Shown in pieces: positions 17,777 through 63,858 of a DNA stretch of 64,000 nucleotides. A model generated the notes under the pieces. It saw only the letters and a list, made by a program, of their open reading frames with translations. It did no database searches and was not told where the DNA came from. The stretch is from the NCBI GenBank assembly GCA_051362555.1, contig CM120644.1, positions 2,240,954-2,304,953 of the forward strand. The letters run 5' to 3'. A program made the position numbers and the translations under genes. The stretch comes from Lingula anatina. Taxonomy: Eukaryota; Animalia; Brachiopoda. Every line of letters begins with the position of its first letter. The stretch's first letter is position 1.

Positions 17777-18032
17777 TACTCGGGCGTAGATAACATGATC
17801 AAGGTGCAACAGGTGAAAGCACGGAGAGTGAACCTGGCGCACTGACGCCGGGCGTTGCGGTTTACTACAGCTGTATCCGAGCAAATGTACGCCCCGTTGG
17901 TTCAACCGGGCCCTGATGTTTTATCATTTATAAGATATAATAAGTAAACGTCTATTGACTAATTAAAATATAATTCACTATAAGTAGGTAGCAAGTGTAT
18001 TCCATATTCTGTTGAAATTTTTCTATTTTCAG

Positions 18033-31218: not shown

Positions 31219-32674
31219 ATGTGTCCTGGAAATAATATCAACCAGATTGCCCTGTTTTTGCTGATTAGCACAATTCCTGAGGCTTCCAGCAGTACTTCAG
31301 CACCAACGACAACCGTTAGTAAGACAGTTGAATCTGTGACCTCCCCCGCTAATTTGACATCATTTTCAACGAAGTTTACTGGGACAACTCCAACTTATAC
31401 TAATGAATCTACTAGTGCGCCAACCGTTTTACCCCCTGCACCAGCTAGACCACAGGGACCTGGCAAACCTACAGTGCAGATCAAGCCAGTGAAAATTGCT
31501 CTAGGTATAAAGTCGAATATGAAGGATATATATGCTGTCTTGAAGTATCCTTTAATTGCATTATTTATAAAATATCTGCCTCAATATTGAGTTGGATTGA
31601 AAGCTTATATTCCTGTTTATGTGATGTCAAGAAACATTCTAATGCATAATAATGTTTTGCTCATTTAGAAAACACTGAAATTGAGGAATTAGACAAGAAA
31701 ATAAAATTGGCGTTGAGAATTCCGGAAGCAGACTTTGACAATCTCGAAGAAACATTCAAAATTGAAAAGACATATTTGGAAAATCAGGTATAGGGGCTGG
31801 CACATTTTAATATATTTTCTTCTTGGGGTAAAAGCATATATATTGCATTGTTTTCAGCATCCCTCAAAAAACTATGACACTATGTTGCGACGTATATTTA
31901 TTCAGTTATTGCTTTGTATATTATGATACAGTGAGGTATGGTTAAGTATATATCTAGGCGTCTGTCTCTTAAGTCTCCCTCTCTTTCTCTGTTTTACTAC
32001 ATCAGTGCGCATATGGAACTCATCTATTTCAGTTGCTGAAAACTTTTAATGCGGCAAGAGTCGAGGGCTTGAGGAGGGTGGAAATAATAGCGTTTAGGTA
32101 GGTTACTTTGCCCCTCTTTTTGTTTGCCATCAAACAATTTTTTTCACCTAAAAATGTGTTTCGAATCCAATTCAGAATCAATCAATACATTAAGAAAACA
32201 CAAAATAACCTTATAGTCCCTGCATGTTTTCAAATGCAAATGATGTTATAACCATGTGGAATGTTTGCAAAGGAATTAGATAATGGATATCTTTCTTGAG
32301 AAAAGTGATGTATGAAAAAGCAAACCCATAACCAAAGCAACAGACAATTTATTCTGGTCACATCTTATACGTTTTAGGTTTGGGAGCGTTATCATTGATT
32401 ACAACCTAATATTTGCCCTGAAAACATTCTTAGGGCAAAATGGAACTAGTAGTAAAACGTTAAAGACAATCGAAGATGTTCTGTCGAGTCAGAACACAAT
32501 TTTAAACATAACAGTCAATGGAACCACCTTTACCACAGACAGAAATTACTCTGCCTCACAATTAGCTACAGGTGGGTACTATGGTAATGGGAAAAATAAT
32601 AGAATAGTATGGTACTATGCAGAAACAGACGGTAATCAAAGCACCTCACAGGCAGAAGCAATATTTATGTGTAC

Positions 32675-32707
<33 letters not shown>

Positions 32708-35700
32708 CGTAACATGTCACCTACATTTCTTCCACTGCACAGCAAAATCAAGTCTAACGGATCCATGTATACTATATGATGACGTCGACATCTGCGAGTT
32801 TAGAACCCAATCTCGTGATTACTCGTGTGTGCCAGAAACCAATGGTATACGCTGTAAGCCGAAATGTGAGGGTCAAGATTGCAGTGGTCATGGGCAGTGT
32901 ACAGTGCGCTTCCCGAACTACGCTGCAGAGTGTGTGTGAGTAATACATGTAAAAAGGGCAGACGAGTGGTGGTCATAATAATTAGTTAAAATATAGTCAC
33001 ACCTACTGTTATTACTGCCTCTCATTTGTTGTGGAGATAAGACACAATGTTTGATAATACATTCGTTTCACAGCATTGAATTGCAGTATTAAACATTCAG
33101 TTTAGTCTAGTTATAACCAAAGGTAGAGGTATGTATCACTAAGGAATGTTTACGAAAGGTGAAACAGTCACAAAACTGTCATGAATAATTAAAAGGCTTC
33201 ATCCTACAGGTGCAAAGTTGAACACACGTTCATGTCGACGACTACCTATACTGGACAAACTTGCTCAGAACCCAACCAAACCCTGACCCAAACTGGTATC
33301 ATCATAATCACCACCACTGTTGGGGGAGTTCTGCTCCTGGCAGTCTTAGTACTTATTGTGGTAGTGGTGATACTCAGGCGAAAGATCAAAGTGATGAAAA
33401 ACAAGTGAGTATACATTATACAGGAACATTACATATATTATAAAGGAAAAAATATAATTATTTAACTAGAATGATAAGATAAGAGTTTATCTAGCCAATT
33501 ATAAAAATCGGAAATCGTTTTCCTTTTGGAGCAAGAGTAAAAGTAATACAATTGATACATTAAGAATTTGGTTTTGAGATCAAATTAAAATGTGTCACTG
33601 CACTTGGATTAAAGCTGTTAAAGAGTGTTTACTGCCTTTAAAAGTTAAAAGTCTACTATTGCTTGGTAAAAACGTAAAAAGTGATGGTGCAGGATAAGAA
33701 GAGTATTCCATGGTGTTGACAGTTCTTTTATCCATTCTGTTTTTAAAAATATCATACAGCTTGGGTACACACAATATACCATAGAAGTGTCACCCCTACT
33801 GAACCAATTCTTTGGGGGAGATAAATGACTGGAATGATATGCTCCTGGTATCATTTTATTAACATCAAATTTCACAAAAACTGACCAGGTATTATAACTA
33901 CTCAAGATCTGCTTACTTTGATTATTGATTACTTGATTATTATTTGATTACTCTGATTCAGGGGATGACACTTCTATTGTCCATTGTATGTAGGTCCTGT
34001 CGGATAATCTTGCTTGCAGTTTTCACAACGTTGGTTAGTTTATTTCTTTCCTTCCCAGTTGTTTCGCTGTACTATATTGTAATTCCGTACGCAAGGACGC
34101 TTTCAATTACACACCTGTAAAATTAACTAAGATAGGCACGCTATCAGTAAAAGTTCTCAGTGATCTTAAAAATACAGTCTTGGACGTGTCTTCTTTACAC
34201 CCTTCCCGGTGTAATCTTTCCAGTTACTATTCAGAATTACTATTCAGGTGTATACCAAGTAGTTTAAATTCCTCTACATGATGTACCCTACTAACTTCGA
34301 CATTACCAATGGTGAGTGGTGGTTGTACATTCTGATTCCTTCTAAAACCCACTATCATTTATTTGGCTTTAGCTACGTTTAAAATAAGATCATTACTCTC
34401 GCAACACCTTACCACTGACTCAACAGATTTTCTATGTGTACTCTCGTCATTATCAGTAACTAGCCCCACAAGCGTAGTATCAATCTGCAATCTTTAAAAA
34501 TTCCATAACATCCCCAGATATGCGCTGCATGAGGTCACGCTTAGCCCATTGCGCATGCGTGCACTTTTAATGAGTTGCTAGATTGCCATAGGAAAATGAA
34601 TGGGTTCGCGATTCGTGGGTAATTCGTGATAATTGACAAACTAACGACCTGATGCCGATAGACAGCAACGATGTGCTATGCTTCAAGCAACTCCTGACCA
34701 AATATCGTTAGGGTTTTTAAAAAAATTCTGTTGTACACACGTACTAAGAAGTTTGCCGTGTATTGCCTAGCCTACCCTCAGCAAAACGCACATATTTTCA
34801 GAAATAGTGATTTTAGACGGTAGATTCACTCAGAAACAAAGGCAAACTAATTCGTTGCCGATAGCACCAGCAGATAGCAGCACCATACAGAGTCTGATTA
34901 AAACTTTCATGGCAATTAAAAACTTTTACCACTGTACAATGGAGTCCAAAAAAGCACTTGGCACAAATGTGAAACTGCCCAGTGCAAGGCCAAGAATTCA
35001 ATCAGTATTTTCAATTATATTATCAGAGTCTACATAAATTGACTGACAATATCACTACTCAGTATTTAGCTAATCTCTTAATCCAAAATTCCTATCATCA
35101 TTTAATAATAATAATGCAAAATTCTTCTTTCAGATTGCTATTTATTTCAAATTTTAATGCTGCAACTATTCCAAAATAATCTTGTAGTAAAGGAAAAATA
35201 CAAATAAGAAGTGGAAGACTAATTTTACCCACATTATTCAATTATTTGAATATAAAAAGAATAAGATCACGATTTTACAAATTAAAATAATCTTTCATTA
35301 ACTCTTTCATGAATAACATATTAAACAAAATTAAAGTTATAAATTAAAGTGGTAATGGCTTATTCTGGAATAAATGACCTCTGCACATCATCAGTACCTG
35401 ACTTGGTACAGTATAGTTACTACTTGGATACAGAGTTAGATTTAATAATGTAACAATAAGAACAATATATATTACAATAAACTCCTCTGCACATGTCAGA
35501 CGCTTGTTAACATGAACTAACACTACCTGACAATGGGCTGAGCACTTACCGTACTTGGATTAAGAATGTGTACATTTACCCCGTGGACCATTTGAAGATT
35601 ACACTGCGATTAATGCGGTGGAAAATACAATAGAGAGAGTGTATAATGATAGGGTCGCTAAACGATTGTTGAAGGCATATAGTAACTAGCCTAATCCCCT

Positions 35701-45240: not shown

Positions 45241-46168
45241 ATGGAAGCTCGAGGAGTTCTGCTGCTAGTAGTTCTGTGTGAAAGTATTGTTTCTTCAAAT
45301 GCTATGAAGGTAGGTTCAGACACTTGCTACAGTTTGGGTGCCAGTACCTCATGGAAATGCTAAATCAAATAGCGCAAAACACCCAGTGTGGTTTTGCAGT
45401 AATAGAGAATATCTGTATCTATACACTAGTGTGGGTGTGTGTGTGTATGTGTGTGTGTGTGTCTGTAAACTATTATTAATTAATTTTAAACCATTTTAAA
45501 ACATTTCCAACTTTATTTTCAACGATTGGAAAAATGTTTTCACTAATCACTACCAATGACTTACCTTAAAATGTGCTCTTTTACTTAAATAATAATGTAC
45601 ATTTTTTCATATTTCTTTCCATATTCCATAGAACTCTAATATAAAGTTCACTGAACACTGGATTTCTAAGATGAAGGCGTTCTTTGACACTGTTGACATG
45701 GATGGAGACGGTGCGGTCACTAGAGAGGAGTTTATTGACTTAAGAGCGCAGCGAGCTCAAAATGTCTTGGAATCTTGGAGAGCCAAGGCGGTATATGGTA
45801 TCATTTCCCATTCTTATCGAACCTGGTGGTCCAACAAAAACACCAACTATGCAACATCCATAACCTTTGAAGAGTTGATCCAAGCTGTTGAGAAGAAAGC
45901 TGATGATTCGAGTGAGGCAATCGACCAAAGCTCCAGGGATTGGTTCCACACATTTGACCTTGACTGCAATGACAAACTGACTGTGGATGAGTATTCCAAG
46001 TTCCTTTCGGTGTTCCGTAACACAGCCCCTGTTGGAGATGTATTTATTGCTATCGACCAGGACGGCAACGGTAGCATTGATGATGAGGAATTCTTGAACG
46101 GAATCCATCACAAATGGTATGACGCAGCGCCAAATCCTGGTGAATTAATAATGGGCTCCAGAAATTGA
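45241..46168 (+). CDS. Secreted EF-hand Ca-binding protein A (sarcoplasmic calcium-binding protein / aequorin-like fold)
   Basis: Exon 45241-45309 encodes the signal-like MEARGVLLLVVLCESIVSSNAMK; phase-0 intron; exon 45632-46168 (537 nt). HWISKMKAFFDTV-DMDGDGAVTREE (EF1), degenerate EF2, DLDCNDKLTVDE (EF3), DQDGNGSIDDEE (EF4). Confidence 0.9.
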
Positions 46169-48533
46169 CATATTCAGCCGGAATTAAAAGGGTTTGCATT
46201 TGAATTTTATACTATTGGATTGCTAACGTCTTCTTCAATTTTTTCAGAAATTTCGCTACTTGATTTCTTTCACATTTGCACATACTGCTGTTGTGATACA
46301 GAAGTGTACACGCACTTTGCTTGATAAATTTTTCTAACTTTCAGGCATTTAAGCAGTACTGTACCTCAGATTTTAAACGTTTGGTCCTGGTGTTCTCTAT
46401 TCAATTAAAAGAAACAAAGATGCACATGTATGTCTTAGAACTCTAACTCACCAGTTGTAAAACATGCGTTCCAATCGGATTGACCAACGTGTGCAATCAA
46501 AATTGTGCACCCAAAATAACGTTCTATTCTCCCTAAATTTAATATTGCATAAAATAACAATAAAACAAATGGATAATAAATAATAGAATGCAAGTCTTCC
46601 TATTTTTCGTAGCATGGTAATTAAGTATTGCTTACCACATGGTTTCTCACGTGTGGTTCTAACCAACGAGTGCTTACAATGTTATTCATCAGAATTAGTG
46701 TATCTATGTGTCCTACTTCACTTCGCAAACTATGAAAAAAAAAAAAAAACAACAAAACGTTAGACCTCTGGAACAAATGATTTTCATATGTTGTCCATTT
46801 CGAAAAATTGGAATTGCCTTATAATTGTATTCCTCAGCTATGTGGGGTATTTTATCATTACAGGGTAAACATAAAAAAAAATAAAGTTACTATTTTACGA
46901 GTGCTTTTTACAAAATTCTATTAAAAATTGTTCTTGATACAAATCAGCACTTCCAATTATGCTTTCAAATATACATGTACAAGCCCTTCTATTTTATATG
47001 TGGATATAATATGTAGTGGATGTAACGAATTTATATGTGGATCTAATGTATAGTGGTTGAACGAAAAAACTCATAAGTCACATTTTGTTGAAAGCACTCA
47101 AAGCTGTCTCATTTTTTTCACTTGACAACCCACATGCAAATTTAGTTTCATGTTACATCGAAAGATGAATAGGGTAAATCTATTCTGTAATGCAGGCGGA
47201 GATACAGGATTTACATTTGGATATGGGACCATCACTGAGCGCAATAAAACATTTCTGTTAGTCAAAAAATACATCACTCCTTCATAACAGCAGATCCGAC
47301 AAGGGAACACCATTTAAACAAGCTGGTAAGTGATATTGACAACGGCACAGTTTGTAACCGACGTATGATTCTGTCAAGCTTACCCCCTTTTTTGAGCTCA
47401 ATCCGCAAGTGAAATAATTTCTAGTTAAACATTTTGAGTGCCTGATGCACAAAATTTGGTCTAGCGTAAAGGTCAACTACTTTATAATTGAATAATCAAT
47501 CAGATATTTCAGTATATATATCTTTCAGTACCCCCAATTTTGTACTTAGGTTGCAGGTTTGAATGTTCTTTGTAAAAGTGGGATAATTGTAATGCATATC
47601 TGCCCAAGGCATGGATCATGTTGTTTTGGATATCCCTGATTCATATTGATTCATAAATATCGTTGTTGTCGTAGTCTTTTCCTTTCTCCAAAAATATGAT
47701 GTACATATATTTTCAGAAGCCCTGACAAGGAAAAATATAAAAATGACGGCCATCGTATTGGGAATTCTGATGCTAGTGGTGGTTGTTGCTTCAAATGATG
47801 TGAAGGTAGGTCCAGACATGTGTTCAAATATCTGTCCATGCCTGCTAGTTATCACCAGATGTTAGCTTAGTTTCAAAAGAACCATTAGAACCATAATGTG
47901 CTAACCTAGAAGAGCGCTTAATAGTCCGTCCGCCTCTTATAGGCATCCCGACGCATCGTCCTTGCAGGGGAACAGTAATTAAATCTCGGCTCCATTCGAC
48001 CAGACGCGTGGGGGAGGCGGAGGACCATAACAGGATTAAGAGGTCTTCATTTCATGTAGGTCCGCCATATTTAGGCCGTGGACCAGTTGGCACTCGGATC
48101 TTCTCATTCTAAATGACCCCAAAGAGTAAAATCAGAACCCTCATGTTGCAACCAATGAATAAATATTTTAACCTAAAAATATCTTCTAGGAAATTCACAG
48201 TAATGATGTAATATGTTTTATCTTTATATATAACAAAATTAAGCATGATCCCTGTTTTTAAGTTATCTGGTGGTTGGGACGACGTCATTTTCTCTATAAT
48301 TTTAAAAAGCATCTATAAATTCATGTTATTTTTCTACCCCTCTTACAAGCAAACATCCATAAGATGACAGTTAGGCAATATTTTTTTTCGAAAATCTTTA
48401 CCAATATTTTCAAGGTAGGCATTTATGCGGTTTAGGGGATGTAAGAAATGGACCGCAGTGACTGATCTTATGGATTTAGGGAAATCTTCAATAAGAAAAT
48501 ACGATCTTATTATTCTGAAACAGCTTATATTAA

Positions 48534-51500
48534 GAGCTTGTCCACGAGAGAACCAGCCCAGGGTGGCAAGGTGGGGGTCAGCGGATTTCAACCAAATTTG
48601 TTGTATGGAGGCATATTAGGAAGTTATTCGTGAGTTAGGAAGGAATCCCAAAAATATCCTTTCTTCAGAGAATTATAGCCTATTATAAGTCATGGCTTAT
48701 GTAGCCTCTTTGAGACTCCATTTTTACCTTGGAAAAATTATGATATATTTTGTGTAAATTAAACAAAAATGGAGAAAACTAAAAAATATTAGACCTTACA
48801 ATCATTGAAAACAATCATTTGGCTTGCCACAGATATATGTAGAATTCAGATAAGACCCTGCTTGGGCGAGCCACACCCATTTATAACACCCCTCCCCCCA
48901 AAGTCCAATTTTGATACTACCATCTTTAATTGCATATATCTCCATCTTCACAGGGTTTACAGCTATAAAACTGCATGAATATTTTAGGCAGATATGGGTC
49001 ATTCCAAATCAAGTTTCAAAAGTTACTGCTGTATTAAAACAGGTACTGAAAAATACCTCCAAAGTTGGCCATTTTTAAGGCAAAAAATCGTGGTGGATTC
49101 ATTCAAGTCTATGTAGACGATAGGTTTGATTAATTTATTAAACCATTTTGCTCTACAATGATGTTACTAAATTAATAGGGCTGGTGATCATGGAAAGTGG
49201 GTGTGTACTAATGAATATCAGGTCAGTAGGTCAAGGTCACTGGGCTTCATATTTGTAAATTGCCATATATGGACTTCTTAATTTATATGGACAAAAAATT
49301 TAGAGGAAATAAATCATAGATTCTGTTACTTTGGAGAGGCACTGGCAATTAACTTGAGAGTTTACAAGATAATTTTAATATATATATATATATTTTAATA
49401 TCATCAATTTGGTGAATACAAATTAAAATCTTAGTTTAGTAGCGATTTCTTTTTGGTGCAATATTTATTATATAGAGATCAGGATATGCCATAGTATTTA
49501 TGATAGCAAAGCCAGAACAAATCTTTTTTAATTATCAAGAGTTTTTTTTTTAATCATCCACACCACTTTTTGGTGACTATTTATGAGCATACAGTAACTA
49601 AAAAATTATTCAATTTAGTTTATTGTTGTCTCAGATGAATAATTACAAATAATAAAAAAAAATCACAAAATTATAATATAGCAATACATGCAAAGCAGTG
49701 CAACATTAGTTGTGATCATTACAAACTATATCATAATGTAGCAAAACAAGATAATTTTCTATTCAAAAAGCAAAACTAACACAACCGCAAAATATATCCT
49801 GGTGTTATGAAACATCTTTGCAGTTTTGTATCAAACATTACAGCTCATAACATCAAAGTTTTTAATACATTCAAAAATAACTGCCGATTTTTTCTTCCTG
49901 AATAGTCTGTAACCCTCCTTACTGACATTTCAATCTCATCTTCATGCTCACAAATGCTAGGTTCTGCTGGCCTGTTTCTTGTGCCCTTCTAACCTCCTTC
50001 AGTAAAAACTCCTTTACTTTATTTGAATATAGTTTCAAAGGTTTAGATGACTTTAAAGCTCATCCATTGTGTAACTCAGTGAGATATTCAAGAGGGTGGA
50101 GTTCTCTCACAGCTGATGTGCTTTAAGTTTTTCTTTAGTCAGATTGTTGGCCCACTAGACTTTAATTTGGTCAAAAGCTGTTTTTTTTTTTTTTGGCACA
50201 TTTCATAACTGTGGTCTAAAAAAAGACCTTACAAATACTCTTCAGTCTTAGTAGCAAAAGATTTCAGAGAAAACTTCTCTGGACAAGAAAAAATTTCCCT
50301 GTTTGTGATCTTGCTTGGTATAGTCCCAGTTGGCATATTTGCCTCAGAAAAACCCAAATTAACTTTAACATCAGTATCACTCATGTTAAAACTGCTCAAG
50401 GAAGGAAGACACCTTTTCTCTTGTTGTAGGAATCAAGAAAGCTAAATTGTTGTAATTGGACACTCCAGTCCATGCAGGTTTGGAAGATGTCTGTTTAGTT
50501 GGATGTAGAAAATGGCTCCAACTGCAGAAACTAGGGCCTCATGCATCTCCTCAGCATTTGTTATATTGTGGCTTTCATTTACATACATGCCTTTCTACAA
50601 CAGCCATCATTTCCACACTAGTTTCAGTTTCTGCAAGACTTTGGACTCTTTTGCTGACCATAAGATCACTGTGTGTCAAATAACACTTCTCAAATATGCC
50701 TGAAATATAAATATAGCTTACTATAGACACATGAAAACACTTATCTGAAAGTTAATTGATACATTGATGAAAAATAAATTATTATCCCATTTGTCCATGT
50801 TTTATAAGTAAGGCATGGTTTCGAATATTAATTATGATGAGCCTAGCAATTTTGCCAAGACCAGCCCTAGCTTCAATCTAATTCCAATTGTTACCCTTAA
50901 ATTTATTTTACCCAAGTACCATTAAACCTACATAAATACCCACACAAATATAGCTTAAAAGATAAAATTATCACAGGTCCTTAGGCTGCAATTTCATTAT
51001 TTGAAAGGGGGCATTTTTCTTTTTTAAAAAATGGAGCGTTTACCATTAAAAAAATTACACCTAGATCATTTTTCTGAGTGAACTTTTTTTCTGGATTTTA
51101 GCCTGTATTAAAATACAAACAAACCCGTTTCTTACCTGAACCAAGTGGCATCGGTATATTCAAATGGCTTTTTGTCTACACTGACATCTGCAAGTTAATC
51201 CCATGACATATTTCGTTATAGGCTCGTTTTCCCCTGTGTGGATGGTTTCCAGCACAAACCAAGCCCATATCCCAGTGCTGGTCACATGGTGTAACCCATT
51301 TATTCTCCCAAAGATACTTGAAAAAGTCCAATTGCTGTCATCGGATACAAAAGAATTCACACCTGACAAGAACCAGTGTGCTTTCGTAACTCACGCTGTT
51401 TTGCTTCACGTAAACGCGACGAAGATGACTGTTAATATCTCTGTTGCAATTTTTCAATACACTACATGTTTTTTATATCTGTAGACAGAGTATAAACCAC

Positions 51501-52318
51501 ATGATATACGACTTCGTTGAGGAAGATTTGTAAACAAACAGTCTGCGATTTCCGCCATGTTGGATAATGACGTTGTGTTGTTCTGACGTTAGTACATTAG
51601 TTTCACATGGTTTTAAAATGTGTTAGATGCTTGTTTTAACCAGAAAAAAAATTAGAATAGGTAAAATGAAAATAAAAAGTTCAACTAACAGTGTTTTAAA
51701 CCATTCGGTGACTTGAAAGAGATGGCTGAAGTTCAGTGCACCGATATACGTGTTCGGATATATTTACGAAAAATGAAGAAATTAGGTCATGTTCTATCTG
51801 TTACAACGGACAAGTTGTAGAACAGCAGTAAGTTTTGATTTCATGTATAAATAGATTAATGAGTTATCTGTTAGTCCTGAACACGCTTTACCCCAAAGAC
51901 CTGTGAAGATGAAGATATTGTCAAAAATAGAAGGGGGGTGTTCAAAGCATGTGGTTTGTAGGCCTGAGAAAAACGCTTGGTTTGTTACCATGGAAACAAA
52001 GAGAGTGGAAAAAGTGTATATCATTTTAATCCCCTATCTTTAGGTTATAATATATCACCAAACTAAATCATTTGGTGACACCTGTATAAACTTTAAGGCC
52101 AATCAATATAACCCTGTTTTTCAAAAGAATTTTTGGTTGATAAACCCCCCAAATTGTCACTGGCCATATCTCTGTAAGTAGGGATTTTTTTCGGGAAATA
52201 TTGCAGCCTCAGATATTGTTCATATAAAGGTTCAAACACACCAAATATGATGTAAATCCGTTCACCCCCACCTTGCCGCATTTTCTACATTTGCTTTGGT
52301 TTTCTCGTGGACACACAC
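48534..52318 (-). mobile_element. TTAA-specific DNA transposon relic (Sola3-like) in the gene B intron
   Basis: TTAA at 48530-48533 and 52319-52322; imperfect ~140-bp TIRs (GAGCTTGTCCACGAGAGAACCA..GGCAAGGTGGGGGT / inverse). The flanks rejoin to match the uninterrupted gene C intron. A decayed spliced ORF lies on the minus strand (ATG 51558, donor after 51136, acceptor before 50699) with a Cys/His-rich N-terminus. The superfamily call rests on remembered TTAA + GAG-terminus rules. Confidence 0.72.
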
Positions 52319-52410
52319 TTAAGTGCAGAGCACATTATGACCCCATGGAAAGCAGTGCTTTTATATCTTTCTCAAAATGTATAGGCTGTTTCACATATGA
52401 CATATTTTAA

Positions 52411-53910
52411 TATAATAATAATAATTTATTTTTCTATGGCGCATTCCATTAAAAATCTCAATGCGCCTTACAACATTCACTTAAAAGAGCTAAATAACAC
52501 AATACTAATATAAGAACACATTACAATTTTAAAGGACTAAGAACTAATTTAAAAAACCAATTATTCATATTCTAAAATGATAAGAACCTAAAGTGACAAC
52601 ATTTAAAATTAATCATAAAATTACAGTACACCTTATTAAAAACTAAAATTAACTATATGATAGCTACTGATAGGCTATTCTAAAAATATGAGTTTTCAAA
52701 AGCTTTTTAAAAGTATCTATGTCACCTGCTGCTCGTATTTCAGAGGGTAAAGTGTTCCAAACTTTGGGTGCATATATCATAAATGCCCTTTCACCGTAAA
52801 ATTTACCAGCTTTTTTCTCTAAGACACTGTGTTCTAAAAGTAAATGACTAAAAGTTGAAGACCTGGTAACTCTTCCATGCTGATGTTGCTTCATAAGTTC
52901 TGAGATATAAAGTGGTTTATTCTCGGTGACTGCTTTAAAAATGACACATAAAATTTTAAATAAAATTCTCTCTCTTACTGGAAGCCAGTGAAGTTCCATC
53001 AAAACAGGTGTTATATGCTCTCGGCTATTCCATCCCATTTTAGTTACCAGCCTAGCTGCAGAATTTTGAATTAATTGAAGTTTGTTCAGATGATTTTTGC
53101 CTAAACCATATAAGAGACTGTTGCAATAATCAAGCTTAGAAGTAATGAAAGCATGGACTAGTTTTTCAGTTGAAGTTTTGTCCAGTAAGTCACGTATCTT
53201 ACTAATTCGCCAAAGTGAGTATGATGCCGATTTGCAAATTTCAGAGATCCGTCTATCCATAGTTGCATACTGATCAAAGGTGACACCTAAATCTTTCACA
53301 TAGCTAGATGGATTGATGTTGACACCACCGATACAAATATCAGATTTCATTGCATTTCCCCTGTCTGACTTAGACCTTGATGTAAACCATATTAGTTCAG
53401 TTTTTCCATCATTTAGTGCTAGCATGTTTGTTTTCATCCAATTTCGGATCTCAACTAGACAAGTTTCTATTGAGGTGATAGCCATGGAGCGATTACTTTC
53501 ACTTGTGACATAAATTTGAGTGTCATCAGCAAAAATGACAGTGTTGAGACCATGTTTAACTATAATGTCTTCTACTGGTAGCATATACAATGAAAAGAGC
53601 AATGGACCTAGCACAGACCCCTGAGGGACACCATACTCTAAAATAGTGGGCTTTGATAGCAACGACTCAATTGACACCTTTTGTGTTCGATCTTTTAGAT
53701 ATGAGGTTAACCAATTAAGTGCTAAATCTTTTACTCCAAATCGGTACTGTAGTCTGTGCAGAAGTATGTTGTGGTCAATGGTGTCGAATGCAGCAGACAG
53801 ATCTAAAAGGACTAAAATAACATCTTTTTGTTTGTCTAAAGAAAGCATGATGTCATTATGAACCCTTAGGAGAGCTGTTTCTGTGCTATGTCCTTCTCTA
53901 TAAGCTGATT
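52411..53910 (-). mobile_element. 5'-truncated CR1/L2-clade LINE
   Basis: RT motifs SAYREGHSTETALL, LDLSAAFDTIDH, GVPQGSVLGPLLF, FADDTQIY and L2-like LHWLPV..RI.FK; 3' stem-loop GGCGCATT..AATGCGCC (52438-52467) and (ATT)n tail. Confidence 0.93.
52664..53848 (-). CDS. LINE ORF2 reverse transcriptase, C-terminal fragment (open frame, no true start)
   Basis: 394-aa ORF with canonical non-LTR RT motifs; the frame continues upstream to the truncation point at ~53910. Confidence 0.85.
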   Translation of the reverse strand: MLSLDKQKDVILVLLDLSAAFDTIDHNILLHRLQYRFGVKDLALNWLTSYLKDRTQKVSIESLLSKPTILEYGVPQGSVLGPLLFSLYMLPVEDIIVKHGLNTVIFADDTQIYVTSESNRSMAITSIETCLVEIRNWMKTNMLALNDGKTELIWFTSRSKSDRGNAMKSDICIGGVNINPSSYVKDLGVTFDQYATMDRRISEICKSASYSLWRISKIRDLLDKTSTEKLVHAFITSKLDYCNSLLYGLGKNHLNKLQLIQNSAARLVTKMGWNSREHITPVLMELHWLPVRERILFKILCVIFKAVTENKPLYISELMKQHQHGRVTRSSTFSHLLLEHSVLEKKAGKFYGERAFMIYAPKVWNTLPSEIRAAGDIDTFKKLLKTHIFRIAYQ

Positions 53911-55204
53911 ATTATAGAATTCATATATAATAGCAAAAGTGTTAAATGAATTCGTAAACCTGTTTTGTACTACAAATGGCTTTCATTCAAATTTTTGTAG
54001 GACTCCAAGGGAAGATGGTTTGGTCACTAAAAAAGAGTTTATTGATTTAACAACAAAGCGAGCTGAACAGGTTCTGGTATCTTGGAGAGCGAAGGCGGTA
54101 TATGGTATTTTATTCAAAGTATATCAAACATGGTGGTCTAACGAAAACACTAACTATGAGACGTCCATAACATTTGAGGAATTGCTCCCAGCTTTCGAGA
54201 AGGAAGTCGGTAATACAAATGAGGCACTTGTCCAAGTCTCTAAGGATTGGTTTCACACATTTGACCTTGACTGCAATGACAAACTGACAGTAGATGAGTA
54301 TTCCAAATTTCTTACCATCCTTCGCAACACATCCCCAGTCCAAGAAATCTTTGAAGATATTGACCAGGATGGTAATGGTCATATTGATGGTGAGGAATTC
54401 TTAAACGGATTTCAGCATTCATGGTATGACATAAAGGCTGATCCTGCAGATTTTATTTTTGGCTCCCAAAACTGAAAACATGTTGGTAAAATCAGAAAAG
54501 CAATTAAATTTGATTGTATAGTTTTCCTTTAAAATTGTATAACTCTGACATTATTCAGAAGTGTCAAAATTGTACATTGTTAACTCTTCCAGAATAGACT
54601 ACAATGCTGTTGAGTTAAAACTGGGGCGAAGGGTGTTTAGTACGTCTTTTGAATTAGGGATGTTTGCAGTTAATTCATTTTGAGAGAGCTTATAAAGGCG
54701 GCGGCCACTAAAGACACTGGCAAAGATATACCGCCAAGCTTGTTATAAGCGCCTGGGAATCCGAACGTGTTATTCAATATGGCCTGACCTTATGTTCACA
54801 TACCTAATTATGTTGTTATCTAAAATATCAGGCACTTAATAATCCAAGTCTATTTCTGACGCGTACTTGGACAAACGTAATTTTTAGGTTAACTCTCCAA
54901 TGACATTTCATGCTGTACAGTTAAATATACTGTGTTTGACCAAAAAAGTGCAACATACAAGGTATATCGACTGGGTGGCTTTGGAGCCAGAGTGCACACC
55001 TCCGGGTCGGGAATACATGGATTGGATCCATTCCGGCAACGTCGATGTCCTTCATTAACGGGGCCTAGCTGCTGTCTCTCAATTTGAATTTGAGGGTTGC
55101 GCTTGAAACAACGTAATACACTGTACCTAGTCTAGAAGTGAAAGATGCCGTTTGTTTGTTTGTACATCTAGTTTGCAGCGCCTTATTCGGCACTTGGGCA
55201 GTTT

Positions 55205-55846
55205 GCAGTAGCGGTGACACGTTTTGATATTTCAGTATAAATACAATGTATGATATTAGAAGAACATCTTAAATATTTTTTGAACTGTATCCCAAAATAT
55301 CAGACCTTCTGCAAATTCGCAGCAAATTTGATGCAAATTTGCTGCAATATTGCTGCAAACTGCAATTACTTCTTGCAAATTTGTTGCAATATGGCTGCAA
55401 ATTAGCAGCAATAATTTTTTTCTTGCAAACTCCTTCAAACTCGTTGTTGCAAACTTTAAGTTTGCAGCAATTTTGCTGCAATAAAGCTGCAAACTTTTCA
55501 TTTTGCTAAGGGATAGGTTCTTTCGAAAAAATACTACTCACCAAATTTCTTATTGGGTTTTCAAATACATCTGTACATCGATTATATATTCTAAAGAACC
55601 ACAATAGCTAAGTAGCGTCATTCATTGTCTTGGAAGCCCACACGACAATAAATGACTATGTCTATATTTAAAGACAATTATGTTGAACTTGTTAAGTTGA
55701 CGACGATAGGGGATGTTTATTGAAATAAAGGATCACGCCAAAGGCAATAATGCATTCTTGGATCCAAACAGACATCACTCCTAAAGACTTGAAGCATCGG
55801 ATCAGACACGATTTTATTAGACGGGTAGAAAGACCATCTGGTAAGT
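55205..55846 (+). promoter_or_regulatory. Promoter block and non-coding exon 1 of EF-hand gene C (donor after 55840)
   Basis: Paralogous to 44080-44499; TATATTTAAAG at ~55663; donor CTG|GTAAGT. Confidence 0.6.
55291..55512. mobile_element. CCC...GGG MITE with 2-bp TSD (AT), built of TGCAAA/TTGCAGC repeats
   Basis: AT-CCC ... GGG-AT; absent from the paralogous gene A promoter near 44160. Confidence 0.65.
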
Positions 55847-57303
55847 AACATGTAGTAGATTTTACAGTCAGAGTTTGTTGAAAACAAGAGTGGAAATGAG
55901 TGTTAACAGGGAAGATTAAAGTACACTGACGATTTGGCGATAAATTCATTTTTCCGTTGGTTTATTTTTCATATGAAAGTCCAACTGTGAAAAGGAATGG
56001 ATACTGTAGTGCTAGGAACTCTGTGATCAACTATTATATCCAACAAAATATTTTTCAAAACTTTACAATTCGCATAAAAACGTGGGAAATGTTCAGTTCC
56101 ATTTGCTTAGATACTACACTGTAGAAACGGTGTTTAGCATTTAAAAACATACAACGCACGTTAGACCCCTATACGCATTTAGAAATATGTGTAAAAGCTA
56201 AACACGTATAGCTTTTCAAACGTTTCACAGAAGAAAAAGCTAGACACGTTGGCAGTGTTACACGTTTAGTTATGTGTTTAGCTTCACCGTCATATGATTC
56301 TATAATAAGTCTATCACAAGCTAAGCACATTGACTAAGCACTTCCCCTGCTAAGCGCGTGAGGCTGCTAAACATATGGAGCTGCTATAGGTGTGGAATTC
56401 CTAAACAACAAAACGTCAAACCTCTGAAAATTATTATTTTCATCTGTTGTTCACTTCAGAAAATTAGAAATGCTTCACACATTCCTCAGCTATATGTGAT
56501 ATTCCATAATTACGTAGTAAACATAAGAAAATAAGGTTAGTATTACACGTGTTCTTTTTCCAAACTTTATTTAAAGAAAATCGTTATTGATACAAAATGT
56601 CGATAATATGTTCCTAAAATACACGTTTTACGTTCTGAGGATGTAACGAAGAACCAATTAAATTTTGACAAAAAGCTCAAAAGTGCTTTCTTCTCTTTCA
56701 CTTCAATGTAGTTTCATGTTTACATTGAATGATGACTTGGGTAAACTTACTTTGTAATACTGGCAGAGATAAAAGATTTACATCCGGATAGGGGACTATC
56801 ACTGAACGCATTAAAACATTCTTATATCTAAAAAACACACAGCTCCTTCAAAACAACGGATCCGACAAGATTCTACAATATTCATGGTTCTATGGGAACA
56901 GCAGATAAACAAGCTGGTGATCGATACAGGTATATACAATGGAAAATACTGATCTGGGCAGTCGACGTATTATTCTGTCAACCCTATCCACGATGTTGAG
57001 TTCAATCAGCAAGTGAAACAATTAAACGTTCAAGTTGAAAGATATGTTTGAGCGCAAGATGCACATTATTTGGTCTGGCATACATGTATAAAATGAATTT
57101 ACAATCAAAGTAGTTTTATTGATTTGTGATTGAATAACCAAAGAAATGATATGTTTAATTGAAATTTGTTGGATTTATTTTGATATTCCCACTTTTGTAC
57201 TCGGGAGGGATACTTATAATGCAGGTTTCCCCCAGTCATGGTTCCTGTTGTTTTGGATTCCTTAGTGTGATCTTCTAGTAATTTCGTTCTCAAAAATGAT
57301 GGC

Positions 57304-57348
<45 letters not shown>
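57304..57348. repeat. (TA)n microsatellite directly upstream of the gene C exon-2 acceptor
   Basis: Read directly; one AA interruption. Confidence 0.9.
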
Positions 57349-57357
<9 letters not shown>

Positions 57358-57388
57358 TTCAGAAGCCCTGAAAAGGAAAACTATTAAA

Positions 57389-58861
57389 ATGTCGGTCACC
57401 AAATTAGGAGTTCTGCTTCTTGTGGTGCTTGTTGAAACCATTGTTGCTTCAAATAATGTGAAGGTAAGTCATGCGTTGAAATCTCTATCCATGTTGACAA
57501 GCTATTACCAATAGTTAGACTAGCTTAGCTTTATAAGAACCATGCAGTGTCAACCTAGCAACTACTCGTGGTACCGATCAATTTGCACTGCAGGTAGCTT
57601 GGAATAGTTGGATTACCAAAATTCTTTGGTTGGGTAGTATGTAATTGGAAATATTAGCCACACATACCATTAATTATAAGAAAAAAATAATACAGGTTAA
57701 ATGAGGACAGCTTTAGAAGGAACATCAAAAATGTCTAGTTAAAATAAATTAATATTTTATCCTCAGAAATGTATCTTTGAAAATCCACAGTTACGATGCC
57801 ATATGTTTTATCTTCGAACTTAACAATTTTAATCATGATCCCTATCTGGGATTTTATTCTAAGTGGAATTAATTGTAATATGCGAGGTGGTGAGGCGACG
57901 TTATTCTCTCTCTAATTTTCAGCACAAGCACCTATGAATTCATGCTTTTTAGGCCTCTTACTGTACGTCCCTCCAAAATTAAAAAAAAAAAAAAGAAAAA
58001 ATAAATATATTTTTTCGTGATTCTTTACTCAAAACAGACGAAACACCTATGTTTTCAAGATAAGCACGTGCAGTTCTGGGCATGTACGAAGTGAACAGCA
58101 GTGACTAATCTAATGGGTCAAGGAATATGCAATAATATAAGACATTACGACCTAGTAATTCTGAAATAGTTTACTTTCAGTGCTCAGTACAATGTGACCC
58201 CAGGGAAAGAAATGTTTTAACATACTTCTATATTTCCTCAAACATATACATTTCAATAGCGAAATTTGTGAAACAAATTTATAAACCTGTTTTGTACATA
58301 TGATTTTCATTCGAATTTCTACAGGACCGCAAGGGAAATTTTACTGGCCACTGGATTTCTAAGCAAAAGGCATTATTTGATATATTTGATGTTGACGAAG
58401 ATGGTTTGGTCACTAAAGAGGAATTTATTGATTTAACAACAAAGCGAGCTGAACAAGTTCTGGTATCTTGGAGAGCTAAGGCGGTACATGGTATTTTATC
58501 CAAAGTATATCAAACATGGTGGTCGAACGAAAACACTAACTACAAGACGTCCATAACATTTAAGGAACTGCTCCCAGCTTTCGAGAAGGAAGTCTGTAAT
58601 ACAAATGAGGCACTTGTCCAAGTCTCCCAGAATTGGTTTCACACAGTTGACCTCGACTGCGATGACAAGCTGACAGTAGACGAGTATTCCAAATTTCTTA
58701 TCATCCTTCGCAACACAGCCCCAGTTCAAAACATCTTCGAAGATATTGACCAGAATGGTAATGGTTATATTGATGGTGAGGAATTCTTAAACGGATTCCA
58801 GCATGCATGGTATGACTTAAAGGCCGATCCTGCGGATTCTATTTTTGGCTCTCGAAAGTGA
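57389..58861 (+). CDS. Secreted EF-hand Ca-binding protein C (SCP / aequorin-like fold)
   Basis: Exon 57389-57463 encodes MSVTKLGVLLLVVLVETIVASNNVK; exon 58325-58861 (537 nt) encodes HWISKQKALFDIF-DVDEDGLVTKEE, DLDCDDKLTVDE and DQNGNGYIDGEE; intact frame. Confidence 0.9.
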
Positions 58862-60964: not shown

Positions 60965-63858
60965 TAGGGGTGGGCAAATGACAAAATTTTTTTAAAACAG
61001 GTGGATTCTATGGCCATTTTGGCTGCTGAACACAAATCTGACAATATTTTTTACCAAAGATAAAGATTTATATTGGTATCTGCTGTTTTTGTGAAAAAAG
61101 GCGGGAAAATGGCTTTTTGGCCATATTTTCGCAGTAAAGTGCATAATAATGATGTGTAAAATGTCTTTCCATATGTTTTGGGGGTTGCACAGTTCAAATA
61201 TTAGCATATTCAAGACATTGGGAATATTGTTAGGGTGACATCTTTAAAAATATGTTATTTTAAGCAAAAATATACAAAAAATGCATGCTAAAATAAATGC
61301 AAATAATGGCCATTATGTACATACTGAATTCATGGATAACAGTTTGATATTGAAAACAATGCTGAAAATAACTGGATGTGTACCAACTAATGTTATGCTG
61401 CATAATTGCCCTTTTCCTTAGAACAGATAAAACTTTATTAAGTGGCATTAATCTCTAACAATCTGCTTTTGACATTAGAATAGTACTTTTACATCGGTTG
61501 TGTAGTTTAAGATTATATCACCAACACCATGGATGAAAGAAAACAATTACGCAATAGCACAAAAAAGGAACTGTTTGGAGAAAGTTACAGAGAAATCAAT
61601 GAGTTCAAATCAACTGGCAAATTACCATCTGGGACCCAGGTCATTGGTAGAATGCTAGCGCTTTGTAAAAAGCCAGCCAAGGGACAGAAGGCAATGTCTC
61701 GTGATACAAGCAGCAAGATAGTTGCTAATGAGCTTAGGCAAGATTGGATCTCAAAAAATGTTTATCCTATGCATGAAAGATCTGTAGCAAGGAAAATTAA
61801 AGCAGACTATGAGCGGTTTAATGACTTAAGAAAAATGGAGCAGTGTAAGGAAAAGACGAGAACTGACGAATGGTTTAAAAGTCCCAATGATTTCAATGAC
61901 ATGCTGACAAAACATGCTTACAACATTCGAACAAACGACCCAGCATATCAAAAGCATCTTGAAGATGAATTTGGAGTTAAGATGACTAAAGAGGATGAAG
62001 CTTTCTATGAGGATAATTGCTTTGGGTGTTACAAAGCTGTGTGCACTTCTACAGTTCCAAAACATTGGAAGAAAAAACAGAAAAGGAAGCATGAGCGAGA
62101 ACAATCAGCAGCAAACAAAAAAGCAGCAACAGTGAGCAGTTTGGAAGAGCAAAAAAGACTAGATGAATCAGAAATGAGTGAATTACTTAATACTCAGATA
62201 GATAGTGGGGAAATTGACCCACTTTTTACAGGACCTCAGATGTCAAATACATCTCCCTTCCAAGAACGAAAACTTCGTTCATCAAAAGACGACCCCAATG
62301 TAAAAGAAACTGACAAAAAACAGGGCTCTCCGTTTCCGCAAATTAAAATACGCACTGGAAGGAGAAGTCTGAATGAAAGTTTGATGAGATGTATAGTACA
62401 GTGTCTTGCAGAGACAAGGATGTCGCCTGATGAAGTTGCCACAGTGGTCGTAAGAGTAGCTAATATGGTGTTTGGTCAGAATTGGAAGAAACAAAATGAA
62501 AAAGATGATGAGAATGATGAAACTGAAAGTGACGAAGAAAGTGAGCCAACAGAATCTTCACCTTCGGTACCAGGAGTCTGCTGCTTGTCTAATGATTTAA
62601 CTTTTGTTTTCCCAAGTCGTAGATCAATTATGCGATACTTACAGGACGCATCTTACCTAAGCCTAGAGTATGTTGCTCAACAAATCCTCAACCAGATGTC
62701 CAAGACTGATTATTTCAGAAGATCAGATGTTGACAGTGATGATGATATGAAGTATGCTCCATTGACGAACTTAGGGTGTGAGTCTGAATTTTCAAAGCTA
62801 GACCACAGGATTAAAGTTACTGGTGGAAGTTCTTCTGTTCAGACTCTTTCCAGAAAGAATCTGCTTGCAAGTAGTGGTCTTCTGGTACATTCTCAATTTG
62901 AAAGCAAGAGTGCAGCAGAAAGGAAAGAAAGATGGAAATTGGCTCGCTGTTCTGAAGAGGTGAAAGCAGTGCAAAAACTAGAAACAGACTTTCTTGCAAC
63001 TGTTGAATCTGCAAAGAAACTAGCACTACATAAGAAGGAGGAACTCAAGAAGAAAAAAGCTTGTAAAACTCTTGCAGTTTTGGAGAGATGTAAAGACCAT
63101 AATGGCCCACTGACTGTTAAAAGCCTAGACTTATTACCAAGTCTCACGGAAAAACAACTCTTAGATGAAATAAATTATCTGCGGCTCACAGTGGATCCAG
63201 ACATACGTCAGAAGAGGCGTGTTAAAGCAGCAGATGGCAAGTTTAGAATGGAAAAATTCACTGTAGAGGAACTGAAAGCATCAATAAAAATGCACTGAAA
63301 CCAGAACCACTGTAAATGAAGACATTAATGCTTTGCTACTGAGTGTACTACTGTAAACATTCATGTATGTAAATAACAATATAACTACTCTATAAAACAA
63401 GATTGTACAGTTTCATGTGAACCATTGACCATATTTGTTTTTTTTTTTATTGTTTTCCCCATCTTAAAAGCCACAGTTGCATAAACATTTGAATTTTCGT
63501 ATACAAAAATGGTCGTTTAGGGGTGTTTTTTACCTCAAAATGACCAAAAATCCTCTTTTTAACACAAAATAAAATGACTCAGCAAAACCTATTCATCTAT
63601 TTTGTGCTTGTTGATCATAAAATCATATGGTTAGACATAGTACAAGCCATATTTGAACCGATATTTAGAGATTTACATGAGAAATATGTGATTTGCGGGA
63701 GCGTTTGGTGGCCATTTTGAAAAATCACTTGATACCAATATCAGATGTAATTTAAAATGAAAATACTTATTAGATTTGTATTCAGCAGGCAAAATGGCCA
63801 TAGAATCCACTTGTCTGAAATTGAATTTCCCAAAAAAGCGTTCATTTGCCCACCCCTA
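60965..63858 (+). mobile_element. hAT-like DNA transposon (2.9 kb), probably internally deleted
   Basis: Perfect 17-bp TIR TAGGGGTGGGCAAATGA / TCATTTGCCCACCCCTA, plus a subterminal inverted repeat (GTGGATTCTATGGCCATTTTG at ~61001 and its inverse at ~63790-63810). No clean 8-bp TSD is visible. Confidence 0.85.
61529..63298 (+). CDS. Transposase-derived ORF (hAT-like, 589 aa)
   Basis: Single intronless ORF inside the TIRs; N-terminal LPSGTQVIG..IVANELRQDWISKNVYP..VARKIK pattern as in hATm/x-type transposases; C-terminal APLTNLGCESEFS resembles the hAT P.TS..CER.FS motif. Confidence 0.7.
   Translation: MDERKQLRNSTKKELFGESYREINEFKSTGKLPSGTQVIGRMLALCKKPAKGQKAMSRDTSSKIVANELRQDWISKNVYPMHERSVARKIKADYERFNDLRKMEQCKEKTRTDEWFKSPNDFNDMLTKHAYNIRTNDPAYQKHLEDEFGVKMTKEDEAFYEDNCFGCYKAVCTSTVPKHWKKKQKRKHEREQSAANKKAATVSSLEEQKRLDESEMSELLNTQIDSGEIDPLFTGPQMSNTSPFQERKLRSSKDDPNVKETDKKQGSPFPQIKIRTGRRSLNESLMRCIVQCLAETRMSPDEVATVVVRVANMVFGQNWKKQNEKDDENDETESDEESEPTESSPSVPGVCCLSNDLTFVFPSRRSIMRYLQDASYLSLEYVAQQILNQMSKTDYFRRSDVDSDDDMKYAPLTNLGCESEFSKLDHRIKVTGGSSSVQTLSRKNLLASSGLLVHSQFESKSAAERKERWKLARCSEEVKAVQKLETDFLATVESAKKLALHKKEELKKKKACKTLAVLERCKDHNGPLTVKSLDLLPSLTEKQLLDEINYLRLTVDPDIRQKRRVKAADGKFRMEKFTVEELKASIKMH

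What the first reader, a model, noticed from the sequence alone, without database searches (positions are those of the whole stretch)
45241..58861. Secreted members of the SCP/aequorin-obelin EF-hand fold, with a photoprotein-like C-terminus
Seen: each gene has a dedicated signal-peptide exon, no KDEL, EF1/3/4 intact and EF2 dead. The N-helix reads F-T-x-H-W-I-S-K-x-K-x-x-F-D, and after EF4 there is FLNG-x-[HQ]-H-x-WY-x8-[LFS]I[MF]G. Knowledge (from memory): SCPs, calexcitin and hydrozoan photoproteins share this 3-of-4 pattern but are cytosolic. Obelin has WIKRHKHMFDFLD and WY at +9/+10 after the EF4 loop, the same spacing as here. Several coelenterazine-triad residues are not conserved (His22 is M/Q, Tyr190 is M/F, His175 is shifted). 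Inference: an extracellular, Trp/Tyr/His-lined, Ca-switched ligand-binding family, not necessarily luminescent.
Basis: partly seen in the sequence, partly recalled or inferred. Interest (0 to 1): 0.8.

Follow-up and report, generated by a model that had tools for sequence, protein, structure and literature searches.

The report
Secreted dimer-forming calcium proteins of Lingula
This lamp-shell (Lingula-type) DNA holds two intact genes and one broken gene for calcium-binding proteins of a kind that normally stays inside cells; each has an extra exon for a predicted export signal, and the proteins are likely released as calcium-loaded pairs, not as light-producing proteins.

Summary
Three tandem genes encode SCP-fold EF-hand proteins behind a separate signal-peptide exon. 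g1 and g3 are intact. The closest relatives are all Lingula anatina RefSeq models, unstudied in what I could search; they form a well-supported clade beside Lingula's cytosolic SCP-like proteins. RNA reads of a near-identical relative splice the signal exon in frame. The photoprotein reading fails: WY has obelin's spacing, but only 1 of 8 mapped triad residues is kept, and Nereis SCP is the best sequence match. New here: a predicted homodimer (score 0.66, best control 0.00; calibration counts in the report) through a clade-specific conserved helix-C patch, and a Cys in the EF3 loop (12 of 12 members, 0 of 39 non-secreted relatives). A Ca switch is unlikely outside cells. A ligand pocket is neither shown nor excluded. 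The family was not found in two Lingula shell proteomes. The scan noted a secreted SCP before on other DNA (a clam; unchecked). Verdict: new variant of a known kind, moderate interest.

The parts
45241..45309 (+). g1 signal-peptide exon (23 codons; predicted cleavage after about Ala21), GT donor at 45310
   Evidence: RNA reads of a close relative splice from 45309
45632..46168 (+). g1 coding exon 2: whole SCP domain, 178 aa, no further intron; a second in-frame acceptor AG at 45645-45646
   Evidence: 84% identical to L. anatina XP_013387736
47743..47805 (+). g2 signal-peptide exon (21 codons), GT donor at 47806
   Evidence: 18 of 19 residues identical to the leader of P0003
52664..53908 (-). 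reverse-transcriptase (LINE-type) fragment inside the 6.2-kb intron of g2
   Evidence: Pfam RVT_1 E 1.4e-24
54001..54475 (+). g2 exon 2, broken: 62-base deletion between 54010 and 54011 removes the N-helix and start of EF1; frameshift and stop after 9 codons
   Evidence: orthologue XP_013387735 intact
57389..57463 (+). g3 signal-peptide exon (25 codons), GT donor at 57464
   Evidence: only a few reads, no joint listed
58325..58861 (+). g3 coding exon 2: whole SCP domain, 178 aa, recent duplicate of g2 (dS 0.21)
45770..45811 (+). helix-C patch of g1 (residues 47-60 of exon 2, E-S-W-R-A-K-A-V-Y-G-I), core of the predicted dimer interface
45965..45967 (+). codon of Cys112, invariant clade-specific Cys at position 4 of the EF3 loop
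   Evidence: 12 of 12 core rows, 0 of 39 non-secreted rows; at the rim of the predicted interface

Best explanation
These are two intact genes and one broken gene of a Lingula subfamily of sarcoplasmic calcium-binding proteins (SCPs) that carry an extra exon for a predicted signal peptide; the proteins are likely exported, are predicted to pair as dimers, and likely act as permanently calcium-loaded carriers or stores in a secretion, not as calcium-switched light emitters. Shown: gene structure, the g2 break, purifying selection, in-frame splicing of the signal exon in a close relative, and a clade-specific conserved surface. Predicted: SCP fold, cleavable signal, homodimer through helix C with the end of helix E and the EF3 loop. 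Inferred: origin from Lingula's own expanded cytosolic SCP-like group by gain of a signal exon; EF1/3/4 fill with calcium in the secretory pathway and stay filled outside, so calcium is cargo and structure and not a trigger; release would need a competing anion (phosphate or carbonate), as reported for Pf-SCP. The tissue and fluid are not known.
For: Signal-type leader in all 3 window genes and in 7 of 9 core RefSeq rows (the other two, P0006 and the first half of P0161, look N-truncated); none in 39 non-secreted rows; no KDEL. Joint 45309 to exon 2, GT..AG and in frame, in 6 reads of run X7, plus 3 reads of a variant. AF2 model pLDDT 88.8; Foldseek rank 1 is Nereis SCP 2scp. Nereis SCP is the best full-length sequence hit for g1 and the top hit for the family profile. 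Tree: 12-row core clade 100/97*, grouped with Lingula cytosolic SCP-like proteins at weak support, 74/93. Acidic EF1/3/4 ligands largely kept across the core rows. Homodimer model: score 0.66, best of 3 controls 0.00; runs agree in at least 91% of contacts; partner pLDDT at least 72. The mark was reached by 21 of 30 microbial homodimers and 0 of 23 monomers; on eukaryotes by 17 of 29 (animals 7 of 16; only 1 of 7 with no older solved relative) and 0 of 30 monomers; the counts hold only roughly because calcium rode along. Check on the alignment, which that job did not use: the 19 interface sites have entropy 0.69 against 1.08 elsewhere (p 0.010; 2 of 104 slid patterns as low), while the same sites are the more variable ones in Lingula cytosolic SCPs (1.86 vs 1.06); W49, A53 and G56 stand where those proteins mostly have polar or charged residues. 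Precedent for anion-driven Ca release from an SCP: PMC12542302.
Against: No Ca binding, secretion or dimer was measured. No SignalP was available, and an acidic residue interrupts the leader of g1 and g3. The spliced reads are about 94% alike (at least 8 other differences per read), so they come from a relative, not this locus; no joint was listed for g3. A few EF-hands make a poor buffer against about 10 mM seawater calcium (general knowledge), and read depth was low. None of the family accessions searched, and none of six family peptide motifs, is in the 2026 shell-proteome supplement, where a control accession was found 10 times. The 2015 shell-protein domain table has no EF-hand. The dimer pass may be from memory of related structures. 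The tree has no photoprotein rows and its deep forks are weak. Pocket-facing sites vary more than other buried sites (1.31 vs 0.96, p 0.064), which fits a ligand carrier better.
Confidence: 0.42

Rival explanations
1. A secreted family of small-molecule carriers: calcium is structural and the core holds a hydrophobic ligand (pigment, lipid, hormone or dietary toxin), with paralogues tuned to different ligands.
For: The fold has been used for ligands several times. VIA-align lists JH-diol kinase Z 18.6 (rmsd 2.6, 169 aligned), Renilla coelenterazine-binding protein Z 18.2 (2.6, 172) and Nereis SCP Z 18.0 (2.9, 169) as tied; okadaic-acid-binding protein has Z 15.3. The His22-equivalent site reads M/Q/I/H/E/F/F/Y/M/M in ten paralogues but only M/L/I in the nine cytosolic Lingula rows; sites 100 and 101 are mostly small. 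Polar residues at the 18 cavity sites: 2.2 per protein against 1.3-1.6. It would explain a multigene family better than buffering does.
Against: The variability excess is not significant (p 0.064). Summed side-chain volume at cavity sites is not lower than in cytosolic SCPs (3044 vs 2989, p 0.31; a crude measure, since obelin itself sums to 3177). The Gly/Ala at +5 of SCPs is mostly Phe here, which fills the His175 space. Lingula's cytosolic SCP-like group is just as expanded.
Confidence: 0.27
2. A structural component of mucus or matrix: the dimers are cross-linked through the invariant exposed Cys112 to each other or to mucins, or Cys112 with His106 and Asp103 forms a transition-metal site at the dimer rim.
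For: Cys112 is in 12 of 12 core rows, 0 of 39 non-secreted rows and 0 of 4 other Lingula leader-group rows, and it is the only Cys in g1 exon 2. H106 is in 10 of 12 and D103 in 10 of 12, both in the predicted interface. A long Ser/Thr-rich mucin-like ORF lies upstream in the window.
Against: A 112-112 contact is not among the 25 best-ranked pairs; the two-fold centre is at residues 52-56. Gene neighbourhood says little in animals. Not found in the shell proteomes.
Confidence: 0.14
3. The leader leads to the ER, Golgi or secretory granules, where the proteins stay as luminal calcium buffers or are membrane-anchored; they are not released.
For: A luminal setting has calcium levels at which EF-hand buffering is meaningful (general knowledge). 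Absent from shell proteomes.
Against: No KDEL/HDEL-type end in any core row. The hydrophobic stretch is about 8-14 residues, short for a membrane anchor.
Confidence: 0.1
4. A secreted photoprotein or coelenterazine-binding protein.
For: Same fold: obelin Z 14.7-16.0 for most entries, apo-aequorin 17.2. W/Y at +9/+10 as in obelin, in 8 of 12 core rows; W at +9 in 2 of 39 and Y at +10 in 1 of 39 other rows. Renilla CBP binds coelenterazine without the triads (recalled).
Against: Of eight mapped triad residues (H22, F88, W92, W114, Y138, H175, W179, Y190; roles from PMC10095345), g1 and g3 keep only W179, and no core row keeps more than 2. No closer to obelin than other SCP-like rows at 18 cavity sites. 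WY is missing from P0004, P0005, P0006 and P0010. Extracellular calcium would discharge a photoprotein at once (inference). I know of no luminescence in Lingula (recalled, not searched).
Confidence: 0.02

Closest known systems
Nereis diversicolor SCP (PDB 2scp/1q80) and the annelid/mollusc-type SCPs
   Same: Best full-length sequence hit and Foldseek rank 1; about 175-aa compact four-EF fold, dead EF2, W-x-x-K N-helix, aromatic then Gly at the C-terminus.
   Different: About 20% identical; cytosolic. The window proteins add a signal exon, an apolar helix-C patch, Cys in the EF3 loop, and lack the usual aromatic at +8 after EF4.
Lingula anatina RefSeq models XP_013387736, XP_013387735, XP_013409153, XP_013387022, XP_013409152, XP_013407389, XP_013410333, XP_013404058
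   Same: Same subfamily; g1 is 84% identical to XP_013387736 and g2 groups with XP_013387735.
   Different: Only automatic names (SCP-like, calmodulin-like, uncharacterized). No description of secretion or dimer found in my searches. g2 is broken here but intact there.
Pf-SCP of Pinctada fucata (PDB 9L5M; PMC12542302)
   Same: SCP fold (Z 15.9, rmsd 2.7, 163 aligned); proposed calcium carrier for shell formation, with release driven by carbonate.
   Different: 10% identical; localised within mantle epithelial cells, described as monomeric with two bound calcium ions; 'signal peptide' does not occur in the paper's main text.
Hydrozoan photoproteins (obelin, aequorin, clytin, mitrocomin) and Renilla coelenterazine-binding protein
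   Same: Fold, EF I/III/IV pattern (PMC3570280), W179/Y180 spacing.
   Different: Triads absent (1 of 8 sites); these proteins are intracellular calcium switches (recalled).
JH-diol kinase (7pjd), calexcitin (2ccm), okadaic-acid-binding protein 2.1 (4wri)
   Same: Same fold, Z 15-18.6; they show that the fold can take on ligands.
   Different: 14-18% identical; no motif or activity link was tested here.

Membership tests
SCP fold family (SCP/calexcitin/photoprotein superfamily) | Compact eight-helix four-EF-hand fold of about 175-190 aa | tested here: met
   Model pLDDT 88.8, pTM 0.85; TM 0.73 to 2scp; Z 18.0, rmsd 2.9 over 169
SCP fold family (SCP/calexcitin/photoprotein superfamily) | EF1, EF3, EF4 with calcium ligands; EF2 degenerate | tested here: met
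   Loop sequences for g1 and g3 (EF3 has Asp at position 6); g2 has lost the start of EF1
Classical SCP | Cytosolic protein without a signal peptide | tested here: not met
   Hydrophobic leader on its own exon, spliced in frame; hence a variant, not a classical member
Classical SCP | High-affinity Ca/Mg binding, buffer function | not testable with these tools
   Needs titration of recombinant protein
Ca-regulated photoprotein | His175-Trp179-Tyr190 triad | tested here: not met
   I158/W162/M174 in g1 and F/W/F in g3
Ca-regulated photoprotein | His22-Phe88(Tyr)-Trp92 triad | tested here: not met
   M14/L82/V86 in g1 and Q/L/F in g3; the W92 mapping was made by hand, ungapped from F85
Ca-regulated photoprotein | Tyr138-His64-Trp114 triad | tested here: not met
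   F124 in 10 of 10 intact core rows; site 100 is S/V in the window genes; His64 could not be mapped reliably and was left out
Ca-regulated photoprotein | Phylogenetic placement with photoproteins | not tested
   No stored photoprotein sequence was available for the tree; only profile ranks
Ca-regulated photoprotein | Light on calcium addition after charging with coelenterazine | not testable with these tools
   Bench assay
Ligand-binding SCP-fold proteins (Renilla CBP, OABP2.1, JHDK) | Closed hydrophobic cavity in the core | tested here: inconclusive
   Entropy p 0.064; volume p 0.31; no coordinates for a cavity calculation
ER-resident EF-hand proteins (CREC type) | Signal peptide plus C-terminal KDEL/HDEL-like signal and six or seven EF-hands (recalled) | tested here: not met
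   Four-EF SCP fold; ends GSRN/GSQN/GSRK
Lingula shell matrix proteins | Peptides detected in shell extracts | tested here: not met
   No hit for family accessions or six peptide motifs in the PMC13425148 supplement, control accession found; no EF-hand in Table 27 of the PMC4595640 supplement. Non-detection is not absence; XP_013404058 and XP_013379571 were not searched by accession

The most novel reading that the evidence does not exclude
Lingula has turned the aequorin/SCP fold into an extracellular, lipocalin-like family: secreted homodimers, locked by a lineage-specific helix-C patch and an invariant Cys, whose paralogues carry different small molecules in the space that photoproteins use for coelenterazine. 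With the clam case noted elsewhere in the scan, shelled lophotrochozoans would have exported SCPs more than once.
Probability: 0.22. Interest if true: 0.68.

Novelty: new variant of a known kind. Interest (0 to 1): 0.45.

Why it matters
SCPs are described as intracellular calcium buffers, and their fold is the scaffold of aequorin and obelin. A secreted, dimeric branch shows a further use of that scaffold and gives testable candidates for extracellular calcium handling in one of the few invertebrates with a calcium-phosphate shell. The predicted dimer patch and the invariant Cys give concrete mutations to test. If a ligand is found, it adds an extracellular carrier family with the photoprotein fold. 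It is not evidence of hidden bioluminescence.

Tried and rejected
No whole genome is held, so copy number, synteny and the intron structure of cytosolic relatives could not be checked. The Atlas search with P0001 gave only sub-0.9 leads (bacterial EF-hand, clytin and calexcitin clusters tied at 0.88-0.89): uninformative. The profile of A2 was enriched with SCPs, so its PDB ranking is biased; I relied on the family-only profile. The Lingula model named 'clytin' (P0160) hit only Nereis SCP and Renilla CBP in the PDB, so its name is no evidence. No RNA holder was listed by index; raw-read runs were laid instead. Of 7 runs laid (X3 and X6 were not), exon-2 reads of the family appeared in X7, X8, X9 and sparsely in X1, and none in X2, X4, X5 on the stretches laid; tissues are unknown, so no tissue claim is made. 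Side-chain volume as a cavity proxy did not discriminate. A script printed the g2 frame one base off; corrected. tblastn found no fourth family gene in the window. Ten paper searches found no description of a signal-peptide-bearing SCP or of this family; subscription journals are mostly outside the library, so older Lingula shell-protein papers were not seen. Passages of PMC4453069, PMC13190495, PMC5935387, PMC4391921 and PMC12248592, and a term search of the PMC13121700 supplements, gave nothing on this family. Pfam named none of six upstream ORF pieces.
Full report
WHAT IS THERE. The stretch 45241-58861 holds three tandem genes on the + strand. Each has a short exon encoding a hydrophobic leader that ends at a phase-0 GT donor (45241-45309, 47743-47805, 57389-57463) and one exon with the whole EF-hand domain (45632-46168, 54001-54475, 58325-58861). 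g1 and g3 are open. g2 lacks 62 bases relative to g3, between 54010 and 54011; read from its acceptor it gives nine codons and a stop. Its intron is 6.2 kb and holds a reverse-transcriptase fragment. No fourth copy was found in the window. Pairwise dN/dS is 0.24-0.29, and g2 and g3 are recent duplicates, dS 0.21. In g1 and g3, EF1 and EF4 are canonical, EF3 has Asp for Gly at position 6, EF2 is degenerate, and there is no KDEL.

WHOSE IT IS. A search with g1 exon 2 gave 5 hits among 33 candidates, all Lingula anatina RefSeq models at 59-84% identity and all with the same kind of leader. A profile search of 1.84 billion representatives gave 2387 hits at E up to 0.001. Of the 150 listed I fetched the 19 short or single-stretch ones and dropped the long multi-EF proteins. 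The strongest full-length hits were again L. anatina. I found no close member outside Lingula, but these collections hold few brachiopods. The window is therefore most likely from a Lingula (inference from protein identity).

IS THE SIGNAL EXON USED? Raw RNA reads of run X7 join 45309 to exon 2 at GT..AG in frame (6 reads, through the AG at 45645-45646; 3 more reads show a variant). These reads carry at least 8 other differences, so they come from a close relative of g1, not from this allele. Family reads were seen in X7, X8 and X9, sparsely in X1, and not in X2, X4 or X5; no joint was listed for g3. RefSeq models with the leader agree. Peak hydropathy of the leaders is 2.5-3.6 in the window genes and in 7 of 9 core RefSeq rows, against at most 1.47 in 39 non-secreted rows (the groups were assigned by eye, so this describes them and does not test them). 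No SignalP was available.

FOLD AND FAMILY. AlphaFold2 gave pLDDT 88.8. Foldseek ranks Nereis SCP first and obelin second. VIA-align ties JH-diol kinase (Z 18.6), Renilla CBP (18.2) and Nereis SCP (18.0), with apo-aequorin 17.2, calexcitin 17.1 and most obelin entries 14.7-16.0. The fold thus names the superfamily, not a subfamily. By sequence, Nereis SCP is the best full-length match for g1 and the top hit of the family-only profile, whose best 60 of 253 hits include no photoprotein. In a 55-row tree the window genes lie in a 12-row clade (100/97*). It joins a Lingula cytosolic SCP-like clade (97/92*) and two other Lingula pairs (three of those four rows have leaders) at weak support (74/93). 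Left out of the tree were P0009 (scrambled model), P0088 (repeat protein), the near-duplicates P0138, P0155 and P0156, and two short fragments (P0257, P0258). Photoproteins were not in it, for want of stored sequences.

THE PHOTOPROTEIN IDEA. The alignment to obelin printed confirms W179/Y180 = W162/Y163. That pair is uncommon elsewhere (W at +9 in 2 of 39, Y at +10 in 1 of 39), though an aromatic at +9 (30 of 39) and the final Gly (38 of 39) are general. Using the cavity and triad residues listed in PMC10095345 (passages), g1 and g3 keep 1 of 8 mapped triad residues and no core row keeps more than 2. Over 18 cavity sites the family matches obelin at 2.4 on average, other SCP-like rows at 3.1. 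The mappings around W92 and W114 were made by hand, and His64, Phe72 and Ile144 were left out as unmappable. The WY looks like a local convergence: the family also lacks the +8 aromatic that obelin and the SCPs share and mostly has Phe at +5, a repacking of the last helix. A calcium trigger is also hard to reconcile with export into millimolar calcium (inference).

WHAT IS SPECIAL. Cys112 in the EF3 loop is in 12 of 12 core rows and 0 of 39 non-secreted rows; W49, I57 and W104 are likewise clade-specific and invariant. A two-copy fold of g1 residues 4-178 with calcium scored 0.66 against a best control of 0.00; runs agreed in at least 91% of contacts and partner pLDDT was at least 72. The mark was reached by 21 of 30 microbial homodimers and 0 of 23 monomers, and on eukaryotes by 17 of 29 (animals 7 of 16; 1 of 7 without an older solved relative) and 0 of 30 monomers; the counts hold only roughly with a ligand present, and the pass may be from memory. 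The predicted interface (47-50, 52-53, 55-57, 59-60, 99, 102-104, 106-107, 111-112) falls on the clade-specific residues, although the job did not use my alignment. Its 19 sites are more conserved than the rest in ten intact paralogues (entropy 0.69 vs 1.08, permutation p 0.010; 2 of 104 slid patterns as low; relatedness not corrected). They are the more variable sites in cytosolic relatives (1.86 vs 1.06), where helix C is mostly polar or charged. A Cys112-Cys112 contact is not among the 25 best-ranked pairs, so a disulfide across this dimer is not shown.

FUNCTION. Best reading (0.42): exported, calcium-loaded dimers serving as calcium carriers or stores in a secretion. The precedent is Pf-SCP, which gives up calcium to carbonate but sits inside mantle cells and is described as monomeric (PMC12542302: abstract, term search, sections 1 and 2.1). 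Against a shell-matrix role: no family accession or peptide motif that I searched is in the supplement of PMC13425148 (abstract, passages, the proteome results section and supplement term searches seen; control accession found). The domain table of shell proteins in PMC4595640 has no EF-hand (passages, supplement term searches and part 9 of 24 seen; the start of Table 25 was not read). The ligand-carrier rival (0.27) rests on the fold's record and on variable, partly polar inward sites (p 0.064), but core volume is ordinary (p 0.31). Cys-linked matrix or metal site 0.14, luminal retention 0.10, photoprotein 0.02.

NOVELTY. The genes are in RefSeq under automatic names. Ten library searches found no account of a signal-peptide-bearing SCP or of this family; the library lacks most subscription journals, and preprint supplements are closed. 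PMC3570280 (passages) places Nereis SCP just outside Renilla CBP and the photoproteins, which explains the overall likeness. An unreviewed note of this scan reports a secreted SCP in a clam, made by added 5' exons; I did not test it. Look-ups by sequence, by words and by place gave nothing else. Verdict: a real, apparently lineage-restricted, secreted and probably dimeric variant of the SCP family; not a photoprotein; interest 0.45.

Noticed in passing
window about 1200-33000 (+), incl. ORF 17988-20810: A long Ser/Thr-rich mucin-like ORF (940 aa) with several similar SEA-like exon pieces (1242-1613, 4581-4886, 32316-32939) and an EGF-like Cys piece; Pfam named none of the pieces. 'SEA' and 'EGF' are my labels by eye.
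   Followed up: partly
window 61511-63298 (+): A 595-aa open frame without a Pfam family above cut-off, with a 61-base inverted pair nearby (60991-61050 / 63760-63820); likely a DNA transposon.
   Followed up: no
window 47850-52600 and 55300-55520: Transcribed repeats inside the g2 intron and between g2 and g3; most RNA reads laid on the region come from these, not from the genes.
   Followed up: no
window 47139-47885 and 56705-57543; 46747-46943 and 56403-56596: Upstream regions of g2 and g3 are homologous (64-75%), and both ATGs follow an acceptor-like TTTCAG about 25 bases upstream, suggesting a further non-coding first exon.
   Followed up: no
P0161 (XP_013404058): This 361-aa RefSeq model has a complete signal peptide in its middle and is probably two tandem family genes merged by the annotation.
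   Followed up: partly
P0057, P0077, P0160 (L. anatina): Further, more distant SCP-like proteins with signal-type leaders but without Cys112 or the helix-C patch; whether all leaders share one origin is unresolved (66/84).
   Followed up: partly
window 45632-46168 and 58325-58861: The whole SCP domain lies in one exon; a retrocopy that later gained a leader exon is one possible origin, untested without a genome.
   Followed up: no
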